NCBI GenBank assembly: GCA_964016885.1
Contig: OZ024741.1
Span: 294,996,001-295,060,000, forward strand
DNA: 64,000 nucleotides
DNA from: Eledone cirrhosa
Lineage: Eukaryota
Reading direction: 5' to 3'
Below the pieces are notes generated by a model that saw only the letters and a list, made by a program, of their open reading frames with translations, made no database searches and was not told where the DNA came from. The stretch's first letter is position 1, and each line of letters starts with the position of its first letter. This document shows, piece by piece, positions 1,571-64,000 of the stretch. The position numbers and the translations under genes are program-made.

Positions 1571-1621
<51 letters not shown>

Positions 1622-1660
1622 ATATTAAATAAATGGAAACTATATTTATAAAACCATATT

Positions 1661-1725
1661 TATTTTATTATATATATTTCAAGGGCAACCAAGACACCAT
1701 TGGTGTGCTTTCATCAGATAAAATA
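1661..1725 (-). ncRNA. Minimal type I hammerhead ribozyme (mirror arm)
   Basis: Reverse complement reads tattttat CTGATGA aag...ctt GAAA tatata TA ataaaata. Confidence 0.8.
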
Positions 1726-1821
1726 CAAAGTTTGTTTTATAAATAGAGATGTACTCATGAAAATCATAACCGATTAGGTATGATTTTCATAGGTACATCT
1801 CTATTTATAAAACAAACTTTG

Positions 1822-1886
1822 TATTTTATCTGATGAAAGCGCACCAATGGTGTCTTGGTTGCCTTTGAAATATATATAATAAAATA
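1822..1886 (+). ncRNA. Minimal type I hammerhead ribozyme
   Basis: Stem I tattttat/ataaaata, CTGATGA 1830-36, imperfect stem II 1837-66, GAAA 1867-70, palindromic stem III ATATATAT, AUA triplet (predicted cut after 1878). Confidence 0.8.
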
Positions 1887-4253
1887 AATATGGTTTTATA
1901 AATATAGTTTCCATTTATTTAATATCATTGAATATTTACTCCAGTAAACTGTTGAGTGCTCTAAATCAGTTATAAACATTTATATTTGTCGGACTTCCAA
2001 CAAATTAAATACAACTTCTACATATATATATATATATATAAAGTGCTGGTCTTGTGGTTAAAGACTTGTGACCACATAGTTTAAGGTTTAGTTCTACTGT
2101 GTGGCACCTTGGGCAAATGCCTTTTACACTTTGCAATGACCAGTGGTAGGCAGAAACTGAACAGAAGGCTGTCTTATTTATATAATATGTCTGTATGTAT
2201 GAATATGTTTGTGTGTGTGCGTGTTTGAATTGCTGCTTGTTTAAATAACCTTCAACCTAGTGGTTTGACAAACAGAGATCAGCAAAGTAAGTATTAAATA
2301 TTAAAAATGAGTACTGGTTTTGATACGATCATCTAAAAACCCTTCAAGGTGGTGCCTCAGCATGTCCCCAATCCAATAACTGAAATCAGTAAAAGAATAA
2401 AAGAGAAAAAAAGAAAGAAAAAAGAACAACTCTTAAGTACTAATCATACAAATGGCATAAATTACTAAAATTCTCTAGAAAAAAAAAATATGTTTGTCTT
2501 AAATAATGACATTTTGTTCAAACATCAGTTACATTGATCTCAACTAATCATGAATAAGAATGAACAATTTTGTCATTTGTTATTAAATCATTTCAGAGAT
2601 TTAGAATAATTAGTAGGAGATGCTCATTTAAACATTTGTTTTTTCTTTTGAATTTTCTTGTTTGTTTTTTTATTATTATTATCATTATTTCTATTTTTTC
2701 AAAATCTTAAACCAATTTGGATTGAATAAAACAGTTTATAAAAGGACATCAAGGGCAAATGTATTGACCTGCACCAGCTAATCTTTAGAATCAACCCTAC
2801 TGTTGATTATTCAGTATTAATAATTCATGTATATGATAGTCAGTTGCTCAAAATATTGTTTTACTTGTAGTTGTGGAATAAATATATGAAAAATGATTTT
2901 TGAATGTATGTTTGTTTAGTGGAAGCAGGTTTAACCCTGAGAGATGGGGAAAATGCACACATCTTTGTAGCAGCTTACAAAAAGCTAACATGCTTTCAAA
3001 ATTCTAATTTGCTTAGTGTTTCATGAAACAATTGAAACAATTGTTTCTGTTTACATGAAAATATATTTCATGGAATTACAAAATACTTCATGGTGAGGAT
3101 GATAAGTGTGTGTGTGGTGGGGGGGGGGGGGGGGGGGGATATTGGTAATGGTGATCTGATTGCTACATTTATAAGGTGTATTTACTGTTCTTATTGATAA
3201 TCTATACCAGAGTTGTGTTCAGTTGCAGGGTAAAAATTTGTTTATTTCTATTATTCACAGTTGTATAAATAACATTACAAATTGTTTGTAATGAAAATAT
3301 AAACACAAATATAAACACATAGTTAATTATTGCTAGGAACTTCACAAATATAATTCCCAAAAATATATGATCAAAGTGAGAGAAAAAGAAAAGGGAAGGA
3401 ACAAAAATAACCATCAGTTCACTACCAAGGGTCAACAGGAAATTTTGAGGCAAACCAGCATGCTTGCAGCCTTACTGTGGGTGATAAACGAAGAATGTTA
3501 TTTCTGGGTTTAAAATAATGTTCAGTATTGATCTATCGTACACTCAGATTATACCTATTGTCTGAAATAATGAAGCACAAGTTATATAATCTGCGCATTG
3601 TAAGGGGCAACTAAAATGGTTGGCATCAGGAAAGGCAGCTTCAAAAAGGATCCCATAATAGGCATGAAGCCTGTTATTGAGCTTGCATGGTCAACCTCTG
3701 CTTTAGCTGTGAAAATGAACTTAAAATGTTTGTTGTGTGGTGTAATTACATAATCTAGTCATGTGTCTAGAAAAACAGCAGGGTGGCCACGGTTAGAACA
3801 CCCTTGACCATAAATCCCTTTAGTCAAGACTGATCTGAAACAGTAACTAAAAATCAATATATTACACATCTGACAACATATCAAATAGAGTTTTTGAGAT
3901 TAGTGAGACAGAGTGTAATAGGGGCTACTGTTAAAGGTGTATAGTAGTTTGGCATAGCAGAGCAATTATTCAGATCAATTAAATCAATTGAGAGCATCAT
4001 AAATTGTATTGTTTTACCATTAGACCATTATAAGCTATTCTCTTCACAACTTTGCATGATGGAAGATATGTTTAAAAAAAAAGATGTTTACAGACTAATC
4101 TAGTAAACCGTTTCTATTAAAACATACTCTATTTGAATTAAGTAATGGAGAATTTGGAGGGATTTACTAAAATTATCAATTATTTCATTATTAAAATGGT
4201 ATTCATAACACAGCAAGATGTTCTTATATCAAATTATGTTGGAAGATATTAAT

Positions 4254-5905
4254 TTAACACTTTATCATTTACATTAAACTATATTTACTATTGTATTTTA
4301 AAATAATATAATAATAATGAAAATATTGTGTACAGTGCTCAGGTGCACTACAACTCATCAAAAAGTGTATGTATATACATAGGGTAATGTACAAACGTCA
4401 GGAAAATGAACAGTGCATGAGTCATGATATACACATATGTGCATGTGTATGGAAGGGGGATATCAGGTGGAGTTTTGGCGAATTTCGGGAAGCATAAAAA
4501 GGATGCAGTGTCTCGGTAGCTACAACTGACGCAGGCAGTTTGTTCCATGCTTCAGCAACTCTAAGCGTGAAAAGATGTTTCCGAAAGTCATGGGAGCTGT
4601 GCTGTTTTCTGACTTTGTAGGCATGTCCACGTGTGTTAGACACATTGAGATCAAAAAGGTGCTCAGGGTTGTTGTTGGCGAGATGGTTAATAACTTTGTG
4701 GGTGTTTACCAAGTCCATTGCCAGACGTCGGAACTTCAATGAATCCATGCCCAGGGAATCAAGGCGTTCAGAGTATGGTAGGTGTCTGATGGAGGGTATG
4801 CGTTTGGTTGCACGTCTCTGAACAGTTTCCAGGAGGTCAATGTTCTGAGCAAGATAGAGGTTCCAGACTGATGATGCGAATTCCAAGTGTGGTTGTACCA
4901 TAGCTGCATACAGCTTTAAATAGATGGCTGGAGAGCGGCTAACAAAGGTCTTGCTGAGTGATACCAAGACATCCTCGGCCTTCTTGACAATTTTAGATAT
5001 GTCCAACACAAATCACTGCTGACAGTAATGCCTAGGTCATGTTCACAAGAGGACTTCTTGATATCAGTGTTGTGGAGGGAGCATGTGGACGCTGGATTTT
5101 TCCTCCCAAAATGCATGGTGGTACACTTGTCCACAGCCAGCTTCAGTTGTCAGTCTGTGATCCATTGCTGCATTGTGTCCAGGTCTGATTATAGGAAAGA
5201 GTTATAGATTTCAGGATCTGTCCTTTTGATTTCAAGGTACAGGTTGATGTCATCTGCATATTTCAGTACTGTAGCATTCTTTAAGTTGGCATCTATGTCA
5301 TTAATGTATGCAACAAACAAAAGGGGACCAAGAACAGATCCCTGTGGTACACCAGATGACATCTCATATAGTGAAGAATGCTGTCCTAGAACCATGATTA
5401 CCTCTTTTCGGCTGAGAATGAAGGATTTCAACCAGTTAAAAAGATTATCCTTCACACCCATTGCAGAGAGTTTCGCCATAAGTCTTTTGTGTGGCACAGA
5501 ATTAAAAACCTTAGCGAAGTCAAGATAAACAACATCCTCCCATGAGCCGCTGTCAGTGATCCGGGTAATGTCTTCAAGGAACTCGATAAGCTGATCACAG
5601 CAGATGGAGTTAGGGATAAATCCAAATTGTGAGGGCCGGATGAGGCTGTGAGAGTTCCAGAAGTTCCAAAGTGTTTCTCTGACACAGGATTCCATCAGTT
5701 TGGCAATACAGCTAGTAAGACTCACAGTAACCACTTTATTTCACATAATTATCTCACATAATATTGAATATACGAGATTTTGATATTATTCATTATGAGA
5801 ACAAAACTGTAATATAAGTATGAGCAGTCGGTTATTGCCGGTTTGAACAGAAAGAGGTGAAATAATTCTGACTTATTGCAACCAGTTTAAATGCTAAATG
5901 GTTAA
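4254..5905. mobile_element. piggyBac-type MITE split by a CR1 insertion
   Basis: Ends ttaacactttatcatt (4254) and aatgctaaatggttaa (5905); 5730-5905 matches the MITE at 36247-36654; CR1 fragment occupies 4311-5722. Confidence 0.65.
4311..5722 (-). mobile_element. 5'-truncated CR1-group LINE (RT C-terminal part and 3'UTR), decayed
   Basis: RT motifs YLDFAKVFNSVPH, GVPQGSVLGP, YADD, RPHLEF-like, NTRGH, RVAEAWNKLP; close match to 29947-31350; (ATT)n tail. Confidence 0.93.
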
Positions 5906-18986: not shown

Positions 18987-20051
18987 TTTTACTTCAATCT
19001 GGTCTCCATTTGCTTTATTTGAGTTGCAAGCATTCAGAATTGCCAGGTCACTAATTTGAGAATAACTTATTTCCTTCATCCTACAAGTCTTGGAGCTCCC
19101 AGAAAAAACAAGTATCATAGGTGCTCCTCTTCCCTTCTTAAGTTGTAAAACAAACAAAGAAATAAAATTGTACAAAGAAATATATACAGTTTGGATTTTT
19201 TACAGTTTCTGTCTAGCAAATTCCACTTCTTAACCACATGGCCACGACTATATTTTTAGAGATACAGTATATATGTACTACAATATAGAGACACACAAGT
19301 TTTTTCTAGAGGTCTGTCTGTCTCTGAGTTACCATAGTTCCCACACCATTCTGGGACTGCCTTGATTAGAGAAAATAAATTACAGCTTTTTATACGAAGT
19401 CTCTGTAGGGAATTAGGCAGAAATGACTCTACAAAGTCAAAGGAAGCTGTTTTTAATCTTCAACTCATTAACTTAAATGAATAAATAATCACTTTTTCAC
19501 TTTTTCTTATCACCATTTCATTTTTTTTTTTATTCTTTCTCTCTTTAAAAACAAATTTTCAACTAAAACTCAAGCAGACTATTTTTGAATTTATTTATTT
19601 TCGTCATTTAGAATGTCAAACACATATATAAACATACACACTACACACACATACATACATATCAGTATTCACACTAACAGACATATCAGTATATTAGCAG
19701 TAGCACTCATGTAATGTGTGCACTCATGTAGCACTCATGTAATGTGATTCATAACAGAGATTATATGAAGGCATATATGATATTTTATGTATAATAAACA
19801 TATATAAATCACTCTCTGACTGTTTTAAGTTGGGATCCTGTCACAGCTATCTCAGTAGTCATCTTAAAAAGCCAGACACATTTTTTATCCATCATCAGAC
19901 ACATTTACTCACTTGGTACTGAGACAAGAATAAGCTATAGCTTATATACTTTTTGCATATAAAAATCTGCTGGAGATGCAAATTATACAAGCACATATAT
20001 AGCATGGAAGATGGACATTAACGATGATGATGATGATGATTATATATATAT

Positions 20052-20474
20052 AGTTAAAAGAATAGAGGTGTAACACACAAGTTATTATATATTGGTAAAC
20101 GGAATAGAAAATGCTGACAAATTGTTCACAGTTGAAAAATGGTTTAATTAGGAATAAAAGAGTATTAGTGATTGTATGGGTTAGTATTCAGTTGTGGTTT
20201 TAAGTTTTTAAGTTTTTACCGGTTGCGCATTTCTAAATGCTTTTCAAAAATAATTTTGAGATAGAGTGTCCATGCTGTTTGCTCTGAGCAAACAGCACGG
20301 ACACGCTATCTCAAAATTATTTTTGAAAAGCATTTAGAAATGCGCAACCGGTAAAAACTTAAAAACTTAAAACCACAACTGAATACTAACCCATACAATC
20401 ACTAATACTCTTTTATTCCTAATTAAACCATTTTTCAACTGTGAACAATTTGTCAGCATTTTCTATTCCGTTTA

Positions 20475-20484
<10 letters not shown>
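20052..20484 (-). mobile_element. Fold-back element: ~400-bp near-perfect palindrome plus ~34-nt tail, in (TA)n
   Basis: Arms 20086-20284 and 20286-20484 about a 1-nt centre; unpaired tail 20052-20085; same family as 61120-61394. Confidence 0.8.
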
Positions 20485-26055: not shown

Positions 26056-27273
26056 CTTTTCCACAGCATCGATATTGCCAATCCATACTACTTGATTTGG
26101 TAAAAATAATAAAATTGTTTTGATAATATTTCAGCTTGGCTGATAATACTTTTGCATATATTACCACGGCCTCCATTTGGCTATCCATACTGCTACACAT
26201 TAAAACACTATGTAGTAGCATGACAGTAAAGGAACAAATATAAAGATTTTGTTAACTTGCTGTCGTCAATAAAAGCATGACACAGCTGGCAAACACTGGT
26301 CCCGACAATTTTGTTGACGAATCATATATTTTGAATGATATCAGAAACATAATTGTGATAGTAAATATATTCATTATAGAATTGTAAAGAAAATAAACAA
26401 ATAATTTTCTCTTCTTTCAATAATTTCATTATGTTAATGTCGGAATGGAATTTATTGCCTGTGAAATTAGATATAAAATTTTAAATCAATAAGGATAATG
26501 CAAATAAAATAACAAGGAGTTAGATGCCATTGTGGAAATCTGGGTTAAAATATTGTAAAATGTATTACCTGCAAGTTTGGCTAAATAATTGACTCCCCAT
26601 AAACTCATTCAAATTTACTATCACGATTATATCTATAACACATTCTGACAACCAGGGGCTTGTGAGTCTCCCCACTCCTGTCTGTGCAGTCATTTCTGGC
26701 ACCACACCCGAATAGTGGAGTTTCTATCACCTATCCAAATCTACAGTACATGAGCCACAGAACTTTGTTGAGGAAACCCAGACTATAATCCAGCCGGCAG
26801 CATCTATCCTGTTCCACTAGTTCTTGCTCTTTACCTGTAAGGCTCCAATTGTCAATGTTTGCTCCCTCCCGAACCCTTTTTGGGGTCTCGTGATATACAA
26901 TCTTTGTGCATCCATCCCAAGCCTCACAGGACAGGTTGCAGGCCAATCGCCAGTCTTTTACAGCCTGAAATGGCAACTGTAATATATTCTTAGAACAGGC
27001 CCCTCCATCTAATGCAATATCTATTATAGCCTTCCATAATTACGATTTCTGAACGTCGATTCACGTGACTGGTGTTCGCCGGTTATGCCAAATAAACAAA
27101 ACATAAGATGTTAAAAGTACTTACGAGAGATCACGATCCTTTTGTACACACAAAATATTTAGGAAAACGGAAACAAAAATACACAAAAAAACAAAACAAA
27201 AAACAAACATTTTATTTCTCTCGTAATCAAGTGTGCTAAACCTGTATTGTTTACATTCTGTGTTTTTCTACAG

Positions 27274-27790
27274 ATGGGCAGAAATAACAAAATTGCCATG
27301 GTGATATCCATGGATGAAGTATGCGACAAAACTGGTCGATGTTCCAAAATAGAACATTGCCCAGAAAATCACACCTGCCATATTTGTACGGAACCCGAAA
27401 ACTCATTCCGTAATCGCTGGGTCGAATGTGGAACCTGTCGCATCTCTGTCTGCCTTCAATTCGCCACAGGCTTCCGGAGGATCCTAGGCCAAAAAAAGAG
27501 ACATCATATTGCTATGATGGATGGACTCTGGGAGATGGTCCAGCTAAAATCCTGGTCCTTTAAGTGCCCGCCTCCACCAATGTTATTGAAAAACAAAAAC
27601 AACAAAAAACGATGACTGTATCTTCCTCTGTCGTTGTTACTGAACAACGGCAAAACCTATGACACTGGCTTCTGCTGTTATTCGTGTGGAAGAACATCAG
27701 AAACAACAACAACCCATGTCTTCCGCTCCCATTATATCTCAACACCAACAACCGACAACTGTGTCTTCCCCTACCATTCCCGTGGAGGAA

Positions 27791-27831
<41 letters not shown>

Positions 27832-28471
27832 ATCGACCAGTACAGATTTTGCAGAATTGCAACAAATGATTTCTGCTTTAAGAAGGGAAGTAACAGGAAT
27901 AAAAGCAAGCATTCGGGTAGGACCCCACAATGAGGGGTCTTATCGGAATGCCTTGCTAAAGAATCTCCCTGTACCTCTTGCCGTATCTGGGCACACTGAG
28001 AAGATTGCGGAATCTGCCACCCATGAAATAATTGCCAGTGGGGTACCAGAGGACAAGGCTGATCTCCAAGCATTTGCTGCCAGCTCAGCCAAAGACCTAG
28101 GCTGTATTCCCCCAAAGGGTGCTCTCCGCCTTGGTCGACCTGGTCCAAAATCCAGACTCATCAGGCTGTCTTTTTCGGACCCCGCTGAGGCAATTTCATA
28201 TCATCTGGCCTCTGTTAAAGCTGGGCGTGAAAATCGGATTATCTTCCGAACACGCCCAGGCCTACCACCCAATGTATGTCCAAAGCTACGTGCTGCAGCT
28301 TCCTTGAATCGGAACTCAGCACAACATGAAAGTTTTAGTCTGCGTGATGATGGGCAGATCTGGAGGTTTGTTAAGGCTGGTGAAATGTGGAAGAGAGATA
28401 CCAGCTGGTCTGAGTGTGCTCAACCCACAATAACTGGCAATGAAAAAACTGCAACAACTCTGGGAAACTAA
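27274..28471 (+). pseudogene. CR1 ORF1 (Cys-rich PHD-like finger, coiled coil, RRM-like region), frameshifted near 27570-27660
   Basis: CHIC...WVECGTC...FKCP; ELQQMISALRREV; SYRNAL; IIASGVPED; RLGRPGPKSRLIRLSF. Confidence 0.75.
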
Positions 28472-28519
28472 ACCAGAACAACCTGCCATCCTCTACACAC
28501 CATCATAAACTGCAAGCAG

Positions 28520-31199
28520 GGTACAAATTGTTGTCCTTAAATGCTCGCAGTTTATGCAACAAGATACATCTGTTTAACTCCTACGTCAGAAGCATCGACC
28601 CTGACTTCATCACAGTCACGGAAACATGGGCACATTCCTTACTCTGTTTTCAGCATTACTGGGTACAACCTTTTCTGCAAGGACTGCATTAATGGCCGTG
28701 GTGGTGGTGATGGTCTACATTCGTTCAGACTTTTCGGTAATTCCTTGCGGTGATTTGAACGAATCACAAGAAGTTTTTTTTTGTGACATGTATGACCATG
28801 TCAACACTTCTGCTTGATGTTGTTTATCGCTCCCCAAAATACCATTAAGACACACAGCTTTGCGATATCCTCAGAGCTGCTGCCAGGAAAACAGCCACTT
28901 ATGTGTTTATTGCAGGTGACTTCAATCATCCTGAGATCGATTGGGAAACCTTTCGTTGGCCACAAAGTGCAAACGATTTCCTTGAGCTAGTGCTGGACTC
29001 AAACTGGTCACAAGTAGTCACCTCTCCAACAAGAGGTGACAACACTTTGGACCTGATCTTCACCACTACTCCTGAAGTGGTTATCAGTTGTACTACTGAG
29101 GAACCTCTAGGCGCCTCTGATCATGCTATGATCATTGTCAATCTGGCTCTTGCGGGCAGCAACAAAAACCAGAACCATCTCCAATCCGCTTGCTTTGATT
29201 GGAAGAAAGTAGATTGGTATGAGTTCTATAACTCTGGAGATGTGAACACTATACTCCAGAGCATCCTGGACTCAATATGTATAGCGTGTGCAGCATCGTT
29301 GCCACGTAAGCAGAAAAAAAACCACCCCAAAAGTGCAATTTGGGAAACTTCAGCGGTCCGACTTGCCAGGAAAGAACGTTGGAACGCTGAACGGGAATAT
29401 AAACTGCATAAATCAGATGCCAACAGAAAAAAAGCGGAATAAATCTTCCAACCATCTCAAGCAAGTGACAAAAAGGCAGTGTTTGAATTTGAACAGTGCA
29501 TAGCAACCAATCCTGACAGTAAGGTATTCTGGAAATATGTTCATTCAAAGCAGAGACCTCACTCTCCAGTTGGTCCTCTTCGCAATCCCCACACAAGCCA
29601 GATCACTGACGATCCCAAAGAATGCACAGAACTCATTGCTGAGTGCTATGCAAGCATTTTTACTGTTGAAAACCAGAATGTACCATCTCCACCATCTCTA
29701 ACATCAAATTCCATAACAACTATGGACGTCACCTTAAGAATAAGTGCAACTATGCCTCCCCTGGTCTTTATGGTGTTACATACCTGCTTCTCAAACGTGG
29801 CGGGTGCTTCCTTTTGCACCAGCTTTCTTTCTTCTTTCAATACTGTCTCAACAATGGTGCTACTCCGGAGCAGTGGAAAACTGCCAGTGTCATTCCCCTG
29901 TTCAAAAATGGCGACCGCACGTCACCTGTCAACTATCGTCCAGTCAGTCTTACTAGCTGTATTGCCAAACTGATGGAATCCTGTGTCAGAGAAACACTTT
30001 GGAACTTCTGGAGCTCTCACAGCCTCAACTGGCCCTCGCAGTTTGGATTTATCCCTAACTCCAGCTGCTGTGATCAGCTTATCGAGTTCCTTGAAAACAT
30101 TACCCGGATCACTGACAGCGGCTCATGGGTGGATGTTGTTTATCTTGACTTCGCTAAGGCTTTTAATTCTGTGCCACACAAAAGACTTATGGCGAAACTC
30201 TCTGCAATGGGTGTGAAGGGTGATCTTTTTAACTGGTTGAAATCCTTATTCTCAGCCGAAAAGAGGTAGTCACGGTTCTAGGACAGCATTCTTCACCATA
30301 TGAGATGTCATCTGGTGTACCACAGGGATCTGTTCTTGGTCCCCTTTTGTTTGTGGCATATATTAATGACATAGATGCCAACTTAAAGAATGCCACGGTA
30401 CTGAAATATGCAGATGACATCAAGCTGTACCTTGAAATCAAAAGGACTGATCCTGAAATCTACAACTCTTTCCTACAATCAGACCTGGACACAATGCAGC
30501 AATGGATCACAGACTGACAACTGAAGCTGGCTGTGGACAAGTGTATCACCATGCATTTTGGGAGGAAAAATCCAGCGTCTACATGCTCCCTCCACAACAC
30601 TGATATCAAGAAGTCCTCTTGCGAACGTGACCTGGGCATTACTGTCAGCAGCGATTTGCGTTGGACAAAGCATGTCTCTAAGATTGTCAAGAAGGCCGAG
30701 GGTGTCTTGGCATCACTCAGCAAGACCCTTGTTAGCCGCTCTCCAGCCATCTATTTAAAGCTGTATACAGCTATGGTACGACCACACTTGGAATTCGCAT
30801 CATCGGTCTGAAGCCCCTATTTTGCTCAGAACATTGACCTCCTGGAAACTGATCAGACGTGCAACCAAGCGCATACCCTCCATTAGACACCTACCATACG
30901 CTGAACGCCTATATTCCCTGGGCATGGATTCATTGAACTTGGTAAACACCCACAAAGTTATTAACCATCTCGCCAACAACAACAACCCTGAGCACCTTTT
31001 TGATCTCCATGTGTCTAACACACGTGGACATGCCTACAAAATCAGAAAACAGCACAGCTCCCATGACAGTCGGAAACATTTTTTCACGTTTAGAGTTGCT
31101 GAAGCATGGAACAAACTGCCTGTGTCAGTTGTTAGCTGCGGAGACATTGCATCCTTTAAAACCCTCATGCTTCCCGAAATTCGCCAAAACTACACCTGA
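28520..31199 (+). pseudogene. CR1 ORF2 (AP endonuclease and reverse transcriptase), multiple frameshifts and stops
   Basis: LNARSL...ITVTETW, AGDFNHP, PTRGDNTLDL, SDH; NYRPVSLTS, YLDFAKAF, GVPQGSVLGP, YADD, RPHLEF. Confidence 0.92.
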
Positions 31200-49857: not shown

Positions 49858-51184
49858 TCATCATCATCATCATCATCATCAACGTTTAACGTCCGTGTAC
49901 CACGCTTGCATGGGTTTGGACGGGGGTAGTCCCACTTGAGGCAAGAGTGATTGTCTTGCTCGCATAGGACTGTCTGGCAGGTTTTCTACAGTTGGATGCC
50001 CTTCCTAACACCAACCACATTTACAGTGTGGGGCTGGGAGGTTTTTACCGTGTTGCCTACACGGCCACATTACAGCGTGGACTGTGTATTTTTTTGTCGT
50101 GACACCTACACAATCTCATTTGTTTCGGCCTGGATGGCGCGGCACCAACATAACTTTACATAGAACGGGGTGGTGTGGATGGGGTGGGGGTGGTGGCGGG
50201 ACGGGGTGTATTTTGTTAGAGATGCCTACTTGCAAGGCGGGTCTTCTCTGTTACTGAGTACCGCCAAAGGTCTCGGTCCAGTGACATTGTCTTGGAGAGG
50301 TGTAAGTGTGTGAGGTCGGAGTTTATCAGCTCATCCCATGTTTTTCTAGGTCTGCCTATTCCGTGGCTACCGTCTATCTTTATTGCCCTGCACTTTGTTA
50401 TACAGCTATCGACTTTCATGCGCATCACGTGTCCATACCAACGCAGCCTTCTCTCGAGTAAACAACATCTGATCCCTCTTATCTCTAATTTTTTCCTTAG
50501 TTCGTTTATGCTTTGCCGTTCACGTATATTACTGTTACACATCCAGCGGAGCATGCAAGCTTCGTTCCTCTCTAGTCTGCGTATATCCTCTGCACACAAT
50601 GCCCAGGTCTCACTACCATGCAACATTGCTGTTCGTATGCAGGCATCGTACAACCTGCCTTTCATTTTTAGGGAGAACCCTTTGGCAGCTAATAGTGGTA
50701 TAAGCTCTCTGAACTTTTTCCAACCAGTTCTGACTCTAGCTACAGTACTTTCAGAGCACCCTCCCCCACTGCTGATTTTATCGCCCAGGTAACGGAAGCT
50801 GTCCACTATTTCTATAGAACCCTCTGCGCAATTGAAAGAGCTAGTATTTTGTGGGCACTTGCTGCTACTTATTGCACCAGAACACCGGCCACATGTAAAA
50901 TCTATGTTCTTAGTTAGCTTACCTGTGATCCCACTACATCTTTTATGCACCCATACTTTGCATTTAGGACATAAAATGGAGTTTCTACCTACGCCTTTCC
51001 TACACACCGAGCACGACCATTTCCCAGAAGGGACCGCCACCTTGTTTTCTTTCCTACAAACTAGAACTTTGGTCTTAGCCAGGTTAATTTTAAGTCCTTT
51101 TGACTCTAGGCCGTGCTTCCATGTTTGGAATTTCTTCTCTAGCTCGGCCATTGATTCCGCTATGAGTGTCAGGTCGTCTGCGTA
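49858..51184 (-). mobile_element. RTE subfamily B, 5'-truncated at YADD
   Basis: ORF 50216-51151 with Cys/His finger and RLRWYGHV; (GAT)n tail. Confidence 0.94.
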
Positions 51185-51265
51185 TATGTATATATAATAT
51201 ACATATATATATATAATTCACATATATATAATATATGTATATATAATATACATATATATATAATG

Positions 51266-54200
51266 CATCATCATCATCATCATCATCACCGTTTTACGTC
51301 CGTTCTTCCACGCTAGCATGGGTTAGACGGGTTGTCCTGTTGTGGGCAGTGTCTGGTCGGCTGACCATGCCTTGCTCATACAGGAACTGATCTGGCTTGA
51401 TTTCTACAGCTGGATGCCCTTCCTAACACCAACCTCATTTACAGTGAGTGCTGGGTGCTTTTTCGTGGCGCCTACACGTCCACTTTACAGTGTGGGCTGG
51501 GTGCTTTTTTGCCGTGGCACCTCCACGACCACCTTGCGGTGGGGGGGGGGGGCATATTGTTTATATGCTTCAGCATGTACCCATGGGAGGTCGGGTACCC
51601 TGTATTACTGCGTGACGCCAGAAGTCACGGTCGTGTGTCATTGACTTTGAGAGGTGTAGTTGGGTAAGGTCGGCTTTTATCACCTCATCCCAAGTCATCT
51701 TGGGTCTCCCCACTCCGCGGTTTCCATCAACTTCTAGTGCTCTGCACCTTTTTATGCAGCTGTCATCCTTCATACGCATCACATGTCCATACCAGCGTAA
51801 CCGCCTCTCCTGCACGCAGCATTTGATTCCTCTTATGCTCAGTCTCTCTCTCAATTCATTTATGCTTTGTCGTTCACGTATATTACTGTTACACATCCAT
51901 CGGAGCATGCAGGCTTCGTTTCTCTCTAATCTACGTAAGTCTTCCACCTTCAGCGCCCAGGTCTCACTACCATGCAACATCGCTGTTCGGATACACGCAT
52001 CATACAGTCTGCCTTTCATTCTGAGGGAGAAGCCTTTTGCAGCTAGCAGTGGTAGTAGTTCCCTAAACTTCTTCCATCCCGTTCTTACCCTAGTTATTGT
52101 ACTTTCTGAGCACCCACCTCCGTTGCTAATTCGGTCACCTAGGTAGCAGAAGCTGTCTACTGTTTCTACAGGGCCCTCCCAGAGAGTGGTGGCACTTGTT
52201 TCCTGTGGCTGTTTGCTTGCTGTTTCAGCACAGCTGCTGCATGTGAATCCTACATTCTTAATTAAGCTTCCTGAGATCCCGCTACATCTCTTGTGTACCC
52301 ATTGTTTGCATTTGGGGCAAAGAATGGAGTTCCTACCTACACCTTTCCTACATACTGAGCAAGGCCATTTCCCTGAGGGGATCTGGGTTCTGTTTTCTCG
52401 TCTACTTATAAGGACCTTAGTCTTTGTCATGTTGACTTTGAGGCCCTTTCTCTCTAGTCCCTGCTTCCAGGTTTGGAATTTATTCTCTAGTTCTACCATA
52501 GATTCAGCTATGAGTGCGAGGTCATCAGCATACAGGAGTTCCCATGGGCATCTGGTCTTAAACTCCTCCGTTATTGCCTGCAGGACTATGATGAACAGGA
52601 GAGGGCTAAGAACAGAGCCCTGGTGGACCCCAACCTGTACGCTAAATTCCTCGTTATACTCATTGCCAATCCTAACTTTGCTGACTGCTCCCCTATACAT
52701 GGCTTGTACCGCTTTCACAAGCCATTCATCTACTCCTAGTTTTCTAAGAGCCCACCAGATTACTGCACGTGGAACTCTGTCAAAGGCTTTCTCAAGGTCG
52801 ACAAATGCCAAGTAGAGTGGCTTACTTTTAGCTAGGTACTTTTCCTGTAATTGCCTCACAAGGAAGAGCGCATCAGTGGTGCCTTTCCCTGGTACAAACC
52901 CAAATTGCATCTCGTCTATATTCACCCGGTCCCTAATCAGCTGTGCTATAACTCTTTCTGTTACTTTCATGACCTGGTCCATCAACTTTATACCTCTATA
53001 GTTTCCTCTATCTAGTGCATCGCCTTTACCTTTGTAGCAGTTGACAATGATGCTACTGCACCAATCTTTTGGTATGGCCCCCTCTAGTATTACCTGGTTA
53101 ACGATACGTGTGGTTATAGTGTGACCTACAGACCCAGATGCCTTCAGCATCTCGGCAGCTATACCCGATGGACCGGTTGCCTTCCCTATCTTCATATCTC
53201 TGATTGCCTTACTTACTACGCTGCCGCTGACTTGTACTGCTGGTCCCTCTATAGGGTCTACGTGGGGTAGGGTCTCTTCTTCCCATGCATTCTCCTCATT
53301 TAGTAATCTATCATAATGACTCTTCCATGCATCTTTCTTCTCAGCACTTGTGAGGGCAAGCTCACCTTTATCTTTCCGGATACACTTCTCTCCAATGACA
53401 TCACAACTATCTCTGACACACTGCCTCGCAATCTTGAATACCTCCTGTTTCTGGTCCTCACGTTGTAAAACATGCTTGAATTTTCTATCCTCTGCTTCCC
53501 TCCTAGCTAAGTATACTTGTCGCCTAGCTTCCCTCTTGGTCTCTATGTAATGTACCCTGCTCCCCCCGTTCTTCCATTCTTTCCATGCCTGTCTCTTGGC
53601 CTTGACTGCTTCATCTACCTTATTGTTCCACCACCAAGTCACTCTCCTCCTGCTTGAGGTCTTACTCCAGCCACAAACCTCATCCGTCGCCTCTAGTAAG
53701 TTATTTTTTAGGAACTCCCAGTTCTCTTCTACGTTAAATGTCTCTATCTGTTCTTCTTTACTGTCGTAGGCGTTGAGTAAAATATCTTTAAATCTGTTAC
53801 TGGTTGAGGGGACTTTCAGCTACCAGATCTTTCTTCTCCAGGTTGGCCTCTGTTTCAGGGCTCGTCTAGTTCTGACCGTGAGGTCGCTGACAACTAAGCT
53901 ATGTTGGGATGTACATTCCTCACTAGGGAAGGCTTTTGTGTTTACGACCGTCCATCTGTCACGTCCTCTGATGAGGATAAAATCTAACTGACTAGAGTGC
54001 TCCCCTGATCTATAGGTGATCAGGTGGTTGTCGGGTTTTTTAAAGTTTGTGTTACATATCGACATGTCATTGGCGTCGCAGAATTCTAGAAGTCTGAATC
54101 CTTCCTCATTCCTTGTGCCAACTCCATGGCCTCCATGTACTCTATTGAAGCCGTCGCAGTGTTTACCTACGTGTCCGTTAAAATCTCCTGCAATGATTAG

Positions 54201-54634
54201 GAAGTCCTTGTCGTCTGTTAGAGCAGTAGTGTGTATTAGGGACTCGTAAAACCTATCCTTAAGTTCGTCTGGCAGCCCCGATTGGGGTGCGTAAGCTGAT
54301 ATTATTGTGGTAATTGTCTTATTCAGGACTAGTCTGAGTTTAATGATTCTTGCATTTACCCTGTACACTGAGATTACTTTATCTACCCACTTGTCAGCTA
54401 ATAGTATACCTACACCACCCATCCCATCGTCATTTCCCACCCAGAAAAATTTGTAGCACTGGCTTTTTCCTACAAGGACTCTAGCAGACCCTCCTCTCCA
54501 TCTAGTCTCTTGCACACAGCATACATCAACTTCCTTTCGCTCTAGCATTTCTACGATTTCTCCTGCTCTTCCTTTCATTGAGCCTACATTGATGGTACCA
54601 ACTCGGAGTTTTGGGCATTTGTCGACACTCTGCA
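51266..54634 (-). mobile_element. RTE subfamily A, near full length
   Basis: Single APE-RT reading frame, 3'UTR and (GAT)n tail. Confidence 0.95.
51570..54634 (-). pseudogene. RTE polyprotein (AP endonuclease, RT, C4HC3 PHD-like finger) with one in-frame TAG
   Basis: ORFs 53820-54722 and 51570-53642 share a frame; only the TAG at 53820-22 interrupts it. Motifs GTINVGS, VQETRW, SAYAPQ, GDFNGHVG, QFGF, FVDLEKAFDRVPR, GVHQGSVLSP, YADD. Confidence 0.93.
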
Positions 54635-54805
54635 TATATATATAATATATGTATATATAATATACACATATATATATGTATATAATGCATATATATATAA
54701 TATATGTATATATAATATCCATATATATATATATATATAATGCATATATATATAATATACATATATATATATATAATGCATATATATATAATATACATAT
54801 ATTAT

Positions 54806-56685
54806 AGGCATCTGGGTCTGTAGGTCACACTATAACCACACGTATCGTTAACCAGGTAATACTAGAGGGGGCCATACCAAAAGATTGGTGCAGTAGCATC
54901 ATTGTCAACTGCTACAAAGGTAAAGGGGATGCACTAGATAGAGGAAACTATAGAGGTATAAAGTTGATGGACCAGGTCATGAAAGTAACAGAAAGAGTTA
55001 TAGCACAGCTGATTAGGGACCGGGTGAATATAGACGAGATGCAATTTGGGTTTGTACCAGGGAAAGGCACCACTGATGCGCTCTTCCTTGTGAGGCAATT
55101 ACAGGAAAAGTACCTAGCTAAAAGTAAGCCACTCTACTTGGCATTTGTCGACCTTGAGAAAGCTTTGACAGAGTTCCACGTGCAGTAATCTGGTGGGCTC
55201 TTAGAAAACTAGGAGTAGATGAATGGCTTGTGAAAGCGGTACAAGCCATGTATAGGGGAGCAGTCAGCAAAGTTAGGATTGGCAATGAGTATAGCGAGGA
55301 ATTTAGCGTACAGGTTGGGGTCCACCAGGGCTCTGTTCTTAGCCCTCTCCTGTTCATCATAGTCCTGCAGGCAATAACGGAGGAGTTTAAGACCGGATGC
55401 CCATGGGAACTCCTGTATGCTGATGACCTCGCACTCATAGCTGAATCTATGGTAGAACTAGAGAATAAATTCCAAACCTGGAAGCAGGGACTAGAGAGAA
55501 AGGGCCTCAAAGTCAACATGACAAAGACTAAGGTCCTTATAAGTAGACGAGAAAACAGAACCCAGATCCCCTCAGGGAAATGGCCTTGCTCAGTATGTAG
55601 GAAAGGTGTAGGTAGGAACTCCATTCTTTGCCCCAAATGCAAACAATGGGTACACAAGAGATGTAGCGGGATCTCAGGAAGCTTAATTAAGAATGTAGGA
55701 TTCACATGCAGCAGCTGTGCTGAAACAGCAAGCAAACAGCCACAGGAAACAAGTACCACCAATCTCTGGGAGGGCCCTGTAGAAACAGTAGACAGCTTCT
55801 GCTACCTAGGTGACCGAATTAGCAACGGAGGTGGGTGCTCAGAAAGTACAATAACTAGGGTAAGAACGGGATGGAAGAAGTTTAGGGAACTACTACCACT
55901 GCTAGCTGCAAAAGGCTTCTCCCTCAGAATGAAAGGCAGACTGTATGATGCGTGTATCCGAACAGCGATGTTGCATGGTAGTGAGACCTGGGCGCTGAAG
56001 GTGGAAGACTTACGTAGATTAGAGAGAAACGAAGCCTGCATGCTCCGATGGATGTGTAACAGTAATATACGTGAACGACAAAGCATAAATGAATTGAGAG
56101 AGAGACTGAGCATAAGAGGAATCAAATGCTGCGTGCAGGAGAGGCGGTTACGCTGGTATGGACATGTGATGCGTATGAAGGATGACAGCTGCATAAAAAG
56201 GTGCAGAGCACTAGAAGTTGATGGAAACCGCGGAGTGGGGAGACCCAAGATGACTTGGGATGAGGTGATAAAAGCCGACCTTACCCAACTACACCTCTCA
56301 AAGTCAATGACACACGACCGTGACTTCTGGCGTCACGCAGTAATACAGGGTACCCGACCTCCCATGGGTACATGCTGAAGCATATAAACAATATGCCCCC
56401 CCCCCCCCACCGCAAGGTGGTCGTGGAGGTGCCACGGCAAAAAAGCACCCAGCCCACACTGTAAAGTGGACGTGTAGGCGCCACGAAAAAGCACCCAGCA
56501 CTCACTGTAAATGAGGTTGGTGTTAGGAAGGGCATCCAGCTGTAGAAATCAAGCCAGATCAGTTCCTGTATGAGCAAGGCATGGTCAGCCGACCAGACAC
56601 TGCCCACAACAGGACAACCCGTCTAACCCATGCTAGCGTGGAAGAACGGACGTAAAACGGTGATGATGATGATGATGATGATGAT
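54806..56685 (+). mobile_element. RTE subfamily A, 5'-truncated inverted copy
   Basis: Near-identical reverse complement of 51266-53143; 1-nt deletion near 55163 frameshifts the RT. Confidence 0.95.
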
Positions 56686-62224: not shown

Positions 62225-62300
<76 letters not shown>

Positions 62301-62337
62301 ATATATAAGATCAAAAGATGGTTAAAAGAGTTCCATG

Positions 62338-62408
62338 TATTTTATTATGCGCATTTCAAAAATAAATATCATCATACGATGACATTTGCGTTTTCGTCAG
62401 ATAAAATA
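62338..62408 (-). ncRNA. Minimal type I hammerhead ribozyme (mirror arm)
   Basis: Reverse complement of the 62536-62606 motif with an intact core. Confidence 0.85.
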
Positions 62409-62535
62409 GGGCGACATGATATGAAGGTTAAAAAACACTTGTGAATAGTGCAGTTTTAAATCAACATATGATCAATATGTTGATTTAAAACTGCACTATT
62501 CACAAGTGTTTTTTAACCTTCATATCATGTCTCCC

Positions 62536-62606
62536 TATTTTATCTGACGAAAACGCAAATGTCATCGCATGATGATATTTGTTTTTGAAATGCGCATAAT
62601 AAAATA
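62536..62606 (+). ncRNA. Minimal type I hammerhead ribozyme
   Basis: tattttat CTGACGA aaacgcaaatgtcatc-gcat-gatgatatttgttttt GAAA tgcgca TA ataaaata: 8-bp stem I, ~15-bp stem II, palindromic stem III ATGCGCAT, predicted cut after 62598. Confidence 0.87.
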
Positions 62607-62734
62607 CATGGAACTCTTTTAACCATCTTTTGATCTTATATATTATTTATACTCCAGTCCTACAAACTGTAGAGTGCTACTTATCCGATATCTGCATTGC
62701 TTTATTGTACTACAATAAAACTCACCTCCTACAT

Positions 62735-62767
<33 letters not shown>

Positions 62768-63244: not shown

Positions 63245-64000
63245 TCATCATCATCATCATCACCGTTTTACGTCCGTTCTTCCACGCTAGCATGGGTTAG
63301 ACGGATTGTCCTGTTGTGGGCAGTGTCTGGTCGGCTGACCATGCCTTGCTCATACAGGAACTGATTTGGCTTGATTTCTACAGCTGGATGCCCTTCCTAA
63401 CACCAACCTCATTTACAGTGAGTGCTGGGTGCTTTTTCGTGGCGCCTACACATCCACTTTACAGTGTGGGCTGGGTGCTTTTTTGCCGTGGCACCTCCAT
63501 GACCACCTTGCGGTGGGGTGTGTGGGGGCATATTGTCTATATGCTTCAGCTTGTACCCATGGGAGGCCGGGTACTCTGTATTACTGCGTGACGCCAGAAG
63601 TCACGGTCGTGTATCATTGTCTTTGATAGGTGCGATTGGGTAAGGTCGGCTTTTATCACCTCATCCCAGGTCATCTTGGGTCTCCCCACTCCGCGGTTCC
63701 CATCAACTTCTAGTGCTCTGCACCTTTTTATGCAGCTGCCATCCTTCATATGCATCACATGTCCATACCAGCGCAACCGCCTCTCCTGCACACAACATTT
63801 GATTCCTCTTATGCTCAGTCTCTCTCTCAATTCATTTATGCTTTGTTGTTCACGTATATTACTGTTACACATCCATCGGAGCATACAGGCTTCGTTTCTC
63901 TCTAATCTACGTAAGTCTTCCACCTTCAGCGCCCAGGTCTCACTACCATGCAGCATTGCTGTTCGAATACACGCATCATACAGTCTGCCTTTCATTCTGA
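63245..64000 (-). mobile_element. RTE subfamily A 3' part, running off the window
   Basis: ORF 63546-63995 closely matches the subfamily A C-terminus; (GAT)n tail. Confidence 0.94.

What the first reader, a model, noticed from the sequence alone, without database searches (positions are those of the whole stretch)
1822..1886. Hammerheads at 1.8 kb and 62.5 kb share stem I and topology but have different stems II and III
Both have stem I tattttat/ataaaata and an AUA triplet. Stem II sequences differ entirely while still pairing, and stem III is a different 8-nt palindrome in each (ATATATAT vs ATGCGCAT). Structure kept while sequence changes argues for a selected ribozyme rather than a chance CTGANGA/GAAA match. 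Established: short palindromic stem III is typical of minimal hammerheads that cleave as dimers.
Basis: partly seen in the sequence, partly recalled or inferred. Interest (0 to 1): 0.75.

Follow-up and report, generated by a model that had tools for sequence, protein, structure and literature searches.

The report
Hammerheads on Hydra-Penelope retrotransposon stubs
Both self-cutting RNA motifs are really in the sequence, but each sits in a short mirror-image stub of a known kind of jumping gene (two related Penelope-like families, about 68,000 such motifs in this genome); the motif likely cuts only as a pair or with protein help in full-length copies, and is predicted to be folded off at these two spots.

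Summary
Observation confirmed and extended. Each site holds two type I hammerhead motifs, one per strand, in a 160-172 bp fold-back inserted in (TA)n with a one-sided tail. Longer copies elsewhere carry a reverse transcriptase plus C-terminal GIY-YIG frame with the Hydra-clade marks. The two sites are pLTR ends of two paralogous Penelope-like families, 51% identical in protein, so the shared stem I is inherited. A core-plus-stem-I pattern matches 67,820 times (control 0). Selection for the fold is well supported: stem II covaries beyond 2,000 shuffles and stem III stays self-complementary in 92 of 96 copies. Cleavage is not shown: no RNA data, only 1 of 100 family-B copies starts at the predicted cut, and both loci are predicted to bury the motif in a long hairpin. 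Variant traits: an always-unpaired C-Y in stem II (0 of 96 paired), rarely the usual G10.1-C11.1 pair, family-specific palindromes. Hammerheads in Hydra pLTRs are published (PMC8557442), and this scan reached the same reading before on other DNA of this genome. Ordinary; new families of a known kind.

The parts
1617..1768 (-). Family A inverted, 5'-truncated pLTR copy (left arm), no tail, abuts (TA)n
   Evidence: (arms 1609-1768 / 1779-1938, 96% complementary; the outer few bases run into the TA repeat)
1661..1725 (-). Type I hammerhead motif, inverted twin of the reported one
1769..1930 (+). Family A pLTR end (right arm and junction)
   Evidence: 95% to the 3' end of the ORF-bearing copy L066 over 1768-2028
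1822..1886 (+). Type I hammerhead motif A: stem I 1822-1829/1879-1886, core 1830-1836, stem II 1837-1866, GAAA 1867-1870, palindrome 1870-1877, A17 at 1878
1931..2022 (+). One-sided tail of about 90 nt, followed by (TA)n; holds the bulged ACTC..GAGT-GCT hairpin at 1938-1960
62298..62469 (-). Family B inverted, 5'-truncated pLTR copy (left arm), no tail, abuts (TA)n
   Evidence: (98% complementary)
62338..62408 (-). Type I hammerhead motif, inverted twin of the reported one
62475..62646 (+). Family B pLTR end (right arm); begins 124 nt upstream of the predicted cut, inside the family's cluster of 5' ends
62536..62606 (+). Type I hammerhead motif B: stem I 62536-62543/62599-62606, core 62544-62550, stem II 62551-62586, GAAA 62587-62590, palindrome 62590-62597, A17 at 62598
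62647..62735 (+). One-sided tail of about 90 nt, followed by (TA)n; holds the bulged ACTC..GAGT-GCT hairpin at 62651-62678; in full-length copies this sequence leads on into the ORF

Best explanation
Both sites are 5'-truncated, fold-back ends (pLTR plus tail) of two related Hydra-clade Penelope-like retrotransposon families, and the hammerheads are the ribozyme motifs that such pLTRs carry, likely kept active in full-length elements and predicted to be folded off at these two loci. Shown: the motifs, the inverted arms, the (TA)n target, the one-sided tail, the link to an RT + GIY-YIG frame, the two same-strand hammerheads 3.7 kb apart that flank the frame in full-length copies, and covariation. 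Inferred mechanism: a full-length transcript carries two identical hammerheads whose weak stem III (2 bp plus a 4-nt loop as a monomer) is replaced by an 8-bp duplex between the two palindromes, so cutting would be conditional (pairing of the two pLTRs and probably the element's own protein) and would trim or release a unit-length RNA about 210 nt ahead of the likely start codon. Most insertions were likely copied from RNA that was uncut (or re-joined) at that site: the endonuclease nicks (TA)n, reverse transcription starts at either end of the tail and runs to an RNA 5' end some 120-130 nt upstream of the cut site, and two such copies joined back to back give the fold-back. In any read-through transcript of these loci the complementary arm is made first, so the motif would be trapped in a 160-170 bp hairpin.
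For: Repeats: at least 957 and 997 first-look candidates, top copies 91-100% identical; 2,565 and 694 exact matches to subfamily patterns; 67,820 to the general pattern, control 0. ORF link: family B motif about 1.0-1.3 kb downstream of 820-821-codon open frames in 14 of 15 loci picked for long frames, with a second same-strand motif about 200 nt upstream of the frame in 6 of 15; the window's own B subfamily downstream of broken frames in L064, L186-L189; family A downstream of frames in L066 and many of L126-L155. Protein: best fold matches are telomerase RT (E 7e-8); C-terminal domain matches I-TevI GIY-YIG (Z 8.8, rmsd 2.4, 89 aligned; top four rows GIY-YIG-type nucleases); R-W, DKT, CxCx5C, CxxC..E..N..CxH visible. 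(TA)n-type repeat directly after 29 of 32 and 36 of 39 3' ends; tail on 11 of 32 and 26 of 39. 27 of 39 neighbouring motif pairs within 6 kb point away from each other, 13 of them within 400 nt. Folding: double hammerhead -17.2 and -42.3 kcal/mol against -4.6 and -22.4 for two active monomers; monomer stem III probability 0.0; A x B palindromes do not pair (+1.7). Whole-locus fold gives probability 0.0 for stems I-III. 5' ends: 11 of 30 family-B copies stop 107-130 nt upstream of the cut. Literature: hammerheads in Hydra pLTRs (PMC8557442); dimer-dependent weak cleavage (PMC4209133); protein-assisted cleavage and insertion from unprocessed RNA (PMC11167929).
Against: No cleavage or expression data. 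Only 1 of the first 100 family-B places on contig C1 begins at the predicted cut; 99 run across it. For family A the double hammerhead (-17.2) is no more stable than two misfolded monomers (-18.0). The first stem II pair is A-U, G-U or unpaired, never G-C, in 96 of 96 copies, unlike the conserved G10.1-C11.1 described for PLE hammerheads. Invertebrate hammerheads with a 2-bp stem III and tetraloop are reported to cut well as monomers (PMC7229834 passages), so the dimer need is not certain. No Rfam hammerhead match and no Pfam match for the ORFs. No intact family A frame was found (longest non-repetitive open frames 689-699 codons). Related copies are not independent, so the shuffle controls overstate significance.
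Confidence: 0.82

Rival explanations
1. The fold is kept for something other than cutting, for example as a binding site for the element's protein or a signal for translation or RNA folding; the catalytic core is conserved but cleavage is rare or irrelevant to transposition.
For: 99 of 100 family-B copies cross the cut site; no G10.1-C11.1 pair and an invariant unpaired C in stem II; catalytic mutants of an Anolis PLE hammerhead did not affect insertion in vitro (PMC11167929).
Against: All 11 core positions are kept across families whose flanks no longer align; the palindrome is kept through multi-base changes, which a mere binding site would not need; one copy starts exactly at the cut.
Confidence: 0.1
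2. They are monomer-active hammerheads: stem III (2 bp plus tetraloop) is stabilised by a tertiary contact from the unpaired C in stem II to the long stem I, and the palindrome is incidental.
For: Invariant C-Y at stem II position 4 beside an 8-bp stem I; invertebrate retrozyme hammerheads with this stem III size cut as monomers (PMC7229834).
Against: The four loop bases are self-complementary in 92 of 96 copies and in all main families; computed monomer stem III probability 0.0, though the model ignores tertiary contacts.
Confidence: 0.05
3. The two loci are themselves working non-autonomous units (retrozyme-like or MITE-like hairpin elements) that multiply as such.
For: Short fold-backs of similar size are common (13 pairs within 400 nt among 100 places); many family B copies are 99-100% identical.
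Against: Junction points and arm lengths differ from locus to locus; hammerheads are inverted, not in tandem as retrozymes need (PMC7229834; bioRxiv 10.64898/2026.07.22.740005); the same ends lead into RT frames in longer copies; the hairpin is predicted to bury the ribozyme.
Confidence: 0.03

Closest known systems
Hydra clade of C-terminal EN+ Penelope-like elements, incl. Hydra-1_Obim (Craig et al. 2021, PMC8557442)
   Same: Single RT + C-terminal GIY-YIG frame, RW(K), DKT, CxCx5C linker, CxxC and CxH around E and N, (TA)n target, type I hammerhead near the 3' end, inverted truncated copy and one-sided tail.
   Different: Unit about 3.7 kb with a 1.0-1.3 kb 3' region (published ones mostly under 3 kb); tail about 90 nt (30-40 nt described); hammerhead has an 8-nt even palindrome, an 8-bp stem I and a long stem II broken by an unpaired C-Y, whereas the published Hydra motifs mostly have 3-4 bp stem III with a 1-3 nt loop and short stem II; Hydra-1_Obim has a different motif; copy number here is tens of thousands.
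PLE hammerheads with small palindromic helix III and minimal hammerheads (Cervera and De la Pena 2014, PMC4209133)
   Same: Type I topology in pLTRs, palindromic positions 15.2-16.2 and loop 3, dispersed single or inverted pairs 100-700 bp apart, sequence-variable families with covariation, proposed dimer activity.
   Different: Helix III is present (not minimal); no extra base between A9 and 10.1 and no G10.1-C11.1 pair; AUA triplet.
Poseidon element of Anolis (Frangieh et al. 2024, PMC11167929)
   Same: Hammerhead in the pLTR, tail bounded by two copy ends, insertions that retain the uncut site.
   Different: Other PLE clade; there the start codon lies inside the hammerhead, here the likely start codon is about 210 nt past the cut; activity was tested there, not here.
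Non-LTR retrozymes (PMC7229834)
   Same: Type I hammerheads in high copy in animal genomes; dimer use in some.
   Different: Retrozymes are head-to-tail tandem units of 170-400 nt without an ORF; these loci are back-to-back truncations of ORF-bearing elements.

Membership tests
Type I hammerhead ribozyme | Core CUGANGA, GAAA, U16.1-H17 around three stems with stem I open | tested here: met
   core intact in 67 of 76 (A) and 85 of 92 (B) copies not fetched by the core
Type I hammerhead ribozyme | Stems supported by covariation | tested here: met
   stem II.2, II.3, II.5, II.6 show A-U/G-C or C-G/U-A swaps; stem I double wobble swap in 25 of 96; stem III
Type I hammerhead ribozyme | Match to an Rfam hammerhead model | tested here: inconclusive
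   no hammerhead family listed; models may not cover this variant
Type I hammerhead ribozyme | Loop 1 / loop 2 tertiary contact | tested here: inconclusive
   no conserved stem I internal loop seen across families; invariant unpaired C in stem II is a candidate
Type I hammerhead ribozyme | Self-cleavage after H17 | not testable with these tools
   no RNA reads; 1 of 100 genomic copies starts at the cut
Minimal hammerhead (min-HHR) of metazoan PLEs | No helix III; extra base before 10.1; G10.1-C11.1 | tested here: not met
   8-nt palindromic helix III present, first stem II pair never G-C in 96 copies (definition)
EN+ Penelope-like element | Single ORF with telomerase-like RT and GIY-YIG endonuclease | tested here: met
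   (family B, in copies elsewhere; none in the window by tblastn); family A 51% identical over 743 columns
EN+ Penelope-like element | pLTR direct repeat around the ORF, inverted truncated copy, one-sided tail | tested here: met
Hydra clade | RWK and DKT motifs, CxCx5C linker, CxxC and CxH flanking E and N, C-terminal EN | tested here: met
   L111 frame: RLRW-T (K not kept), SDKT, CNCRIKNKC, CNLCLNE..N..CLH; definition from PMC8557442 section 11
Hydra clade | Insertion into (TA)n; hammerhead present | tested here: met
Hydra clade | Placement in an RT phylogeny with published Hydra elements | not tested
   only compared by eye with the supplementary alignment
Non-LTR retrozyme | Head-to-tail tandem non-coding units each with a hammerhead | tested here: not met
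   both loci are inverted pairs; ends lead into RT frames

The most novel reading that the evidence does not exclude
These Hydra-clade hammerheads are a gated variant: the 8-nt palindrome is a family-specific pairing code that lets only the two pLTRs of one family cut each other, and the invariant unpaired C in stem II replaces the usual tertiary or G-C anchor as a contact for the element's own reverse transcriptase, so that cutting happens only after most copying has used the uncut RNA. With about 68,000 motifs in several coexisting families, this genome would be a natural system for testing what PLE ribozymes are for.
Probability: 0.25. Interest if true: 0.55.

Novelty: new member of a known kind. 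Interest (0 to 1): 0.24.

Why it matters
The class is known, so the finding itself changes little. Its use is practical: the function of hammerheads in Penelope-like elements is described as unclear (PMC8557442), and this genome offers young families with open frames, matched and mismatched palindromes, an invariant stem II mismatch and thousands of junctions that record where copying stopped. That makes dimer dependence, family specificity and protein help directly testable. It also warns annotators that short perfect fold-backs in (TA)n here are PLE stubs, not MITEs or microRNA precursors.

Tried and rejected
Rfam: no hammerhead family over the window or either site; the microRNA hits are low-complexity or fold-back artefacts below gathering scores. 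Pfam: nothing for the Hydra frames. PDB sequence searches: nothing significant. Foldseek on the nuclease domain alone: no match at E<=0.001, though GIY-YIG enzymes rank first. ESM Atlas gave no result. Sequencing runs: no RNA holder listed; four contig runs were laid and show variants at N7, stems I and II and flanks but none at core positions at the 10% level, and cannot show RNA ends. No PLE frame lies in the window (tblastn empty). Rejected: chance motif; A and B as dimer partners (palindromes do not pair; 60 kb apart); Naiad/Chlamys (nuclease is C-terminal here); retrozyme and MITE readings (see rivals). Paper searches for hammerhead + octopus, Penelope + tail + stem-loop + Hydra and stem II / AUA terms listed no description of this hammerhead variant; the library lacks most subscription papers and Repbase/Dfam were not searchable, so the families may already be catalogued. 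No earlier finding of the scan by sequence or near this place.

Full report
Observation. Both motifs are present as written. A descriptor scan of both strands returns four hits and nothing else: + 1822-1886, + 62536-62606 and the inverted twins - 1661-1725 and - 62338-62408; 100 shuffles gave 0 strict hits. Each pair lies in a near-perfect fold-back (1609-1768/1779-1938, 96%; 62298-62469/62475-62646, 98%) between (TA)n tracts, and only the right arm continues into a tail of about 90 nt.

Identity. The window lies in a 3.0 Gb genome. Both right arms are high-copy: 957 and 997 first-look candidates, 2,565 and 694 exact matches to subfamily patterns. A pattern of core plus stem I with free stems II and III matches 67,820 times, the reversed control 0 times. 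Of 20 longer stretches taken upstream of top copies, several hold RT-like frames. A protein search then gave many copies with 820-821-codon open frames; in 15 such loci, chosen for long frames, 14 have a family B hammerhead 1.0-1.3 kb downstream on the same strand and 6 have a second one about 200 nt upstream of the frame, 3,707 nt cut to cut in L113. These intact copies belong to a sister subfamily; the window's own B subfamily follows broken frames. Family A follows frames too, the longest non-repetitive ones 689-699 codons. A and B proteins are 51% identical while their pLTRs align only in the hammerhead and weakly downstream. The predicted structure (pLDDT 80) matches telomerase RT best; the C-terminal domain matches I-TevI at Z 8.8 with three more GIY-YIG-type nucleases next. 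The motifs that define the Hydra clade in PMC8557442 (section 11) are visible in the frame and its 15 database relatives at 33-38% identity. That paper's supplement lists an Octopus bimaculoides Hydra family with a different hammerhead.

Is the fold selected? I fetched 99 of the first 100 pattern places on contig C1 and kept 96 distinct contexts. The 8-nt stem III segment is self-complementary in 92 of 96 (63 fully Watson-Crick in three different sequences, 29 with a central wobble pair). Stem II has one plan in all families: three pairs (90, 93, 95 of 96 paired), one position never paired (0 of 96; C opposite C or U in 94), then a longer helix. Pairing exceeds every one of 2,000 partner shuffles over the 50 distinct sequences (144 of 150 against a maximum of 134; 176 of 200 against 160), with A-U/G-C and C-G/U-A swaps. 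Relatedness inflates these controls. In 185 loci not fetched by the core, the 11 core positions are 98.7% (76 A copies) and 99.3% (92 B copies) conserved, against 87.0% and 93.5% for stem II and about 96% for flanks; these copies were found by similarity, which raises all figures. Four contig runs from three coded organisms list variants at N7 and in stems but none in the core.

How it likely works. As monomers the active folds are weak (-2.3 and -11.2 kcal/mol, stem III probability 0.0). As a double hammerhead with an 8-bp shared stem III they reach -17.2 and -42.3; for B that beats two relaxed monomers (-31.6), for A it only ties (-18.0). A and B palindromes do not pair with each other. This fits the published dimer model and weak in vitro activity of PLE hammerheads (PMC4209133, parts 1-2 of 4 read) and the protein-assisted cleavage of an Anolis PLE (PMC11167929, passages and part 2 of the main text). 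AUA is a natural triplet (PMC1636495, search listing only). Against a strict dimer need, similar invertebrate motifs cut as monomers (PMC7229834, passages). The genomic record says most insertions came from RNA not cut at this site: a pattern starting at the cut matches 13,437 times and one spanning it 12,830 times; of the first 100 places, 91 match the spanning pattern (lists compared by eye), 8 cross the site with point changes and 1 begins at the cut. Re-joined circles would give the same picture. Eleven of 30 copies stop 107-130 nt upstream of the cut, as the window's B arm does (124 nt), which suggests a fixed RNA 5' end (I took this test up after seeing note e1-9952324). 3' ends fall in two groups about 32-50 and 127-139 nt past stem I, matching the two-start-site origin of the tail in PMC11167929. 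At the two window loci the hammerheads point outward, so a read-through RNA makes the complementary arm first; the computed probability of stems I-III is 0.0. They are most likely inert stubs.

Comparison and novelty. It works like, and by motif is a member of, the Hydra-clade PLE hammerheads; it is not a minimal hammerhead or a retrozyme. Differences from the published Hydra set are the even 8-nt palindrome, the long stem II with an invariant C-Y mismatch, no G-C first pair, a longer unit and tail, and the copy number. A recent Octopus vulgaris repeat paper counts Penelope-like families but has no mention of Hydra, hammerhead or ribozyme in its main text (PMC13282606, passages). The retrozyme preprint was read in part 1 of 5 only; its supplements were closed and may bear on copy numbers. 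Earlier notes of this scan reached the same reading on other DNA of this genome; they are not independent support. Verdict: real, selected, ordinary. Interest 0.24; new member of a known kind.

Noticed in passing
window 1938-1960 and 62651-62678: A small bulged hairpin (ACTC..GAGT then GCT) lies at the start of the tail in 90 of 102 long-tailed ends across all families sampled; by eye a GCTC..GAGC-ACT version is in published Hydra-2_Amil, Hydra-1_Ajap (twice) and Hydra-2_Ajap, partly in Hydra-1_Crog. Candidate start signal for reverse transcription; already noted by earlier findings of the scan.
   Followed up: partly
window 20049-20484: Third fold-back (199-nt arms, 99%, about 36-nt one-sided tail, TA repeats on both sides) with no hammerhead in the retained part; 39 candidates in the genome; in 3 of 20 loci a GIY-YIG frame with a Neptune-like CxxxCxxC linker lies about 1.1 kb away on the same strand. 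Probably another PLE family; boundaries not resolved.
   Followed up: partly
G000:C1:9898942 (L277:1446-1545): A family B copy begins exactly at the predicted cut and is joined to an inverted piece of the tail; a single possible trace of cleavage.
   Followed up: yes
L117, L118, L239-L255: Several other hammerhead families with different stems occur in flanking DNA, so the genome total exceeds the 67,820 counted.
   Followed up: no
window 4425-5740, 27163-31196, 50219-56375, 63549-63998: Broken non-LTR retrotransposon frames (CR1/L2-like and RTE-like by recalled motifs), some in inverted pairs; no host gene frame was recognised.
   Followed up: no
genome-wide: Thousands of 100-200 bp perfect fold-backs would give long double-stranded RNA if transcribed inside genes, a possible substrate for A-to-I editing or small-RNA pathways; inference only.
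   Followed up: no
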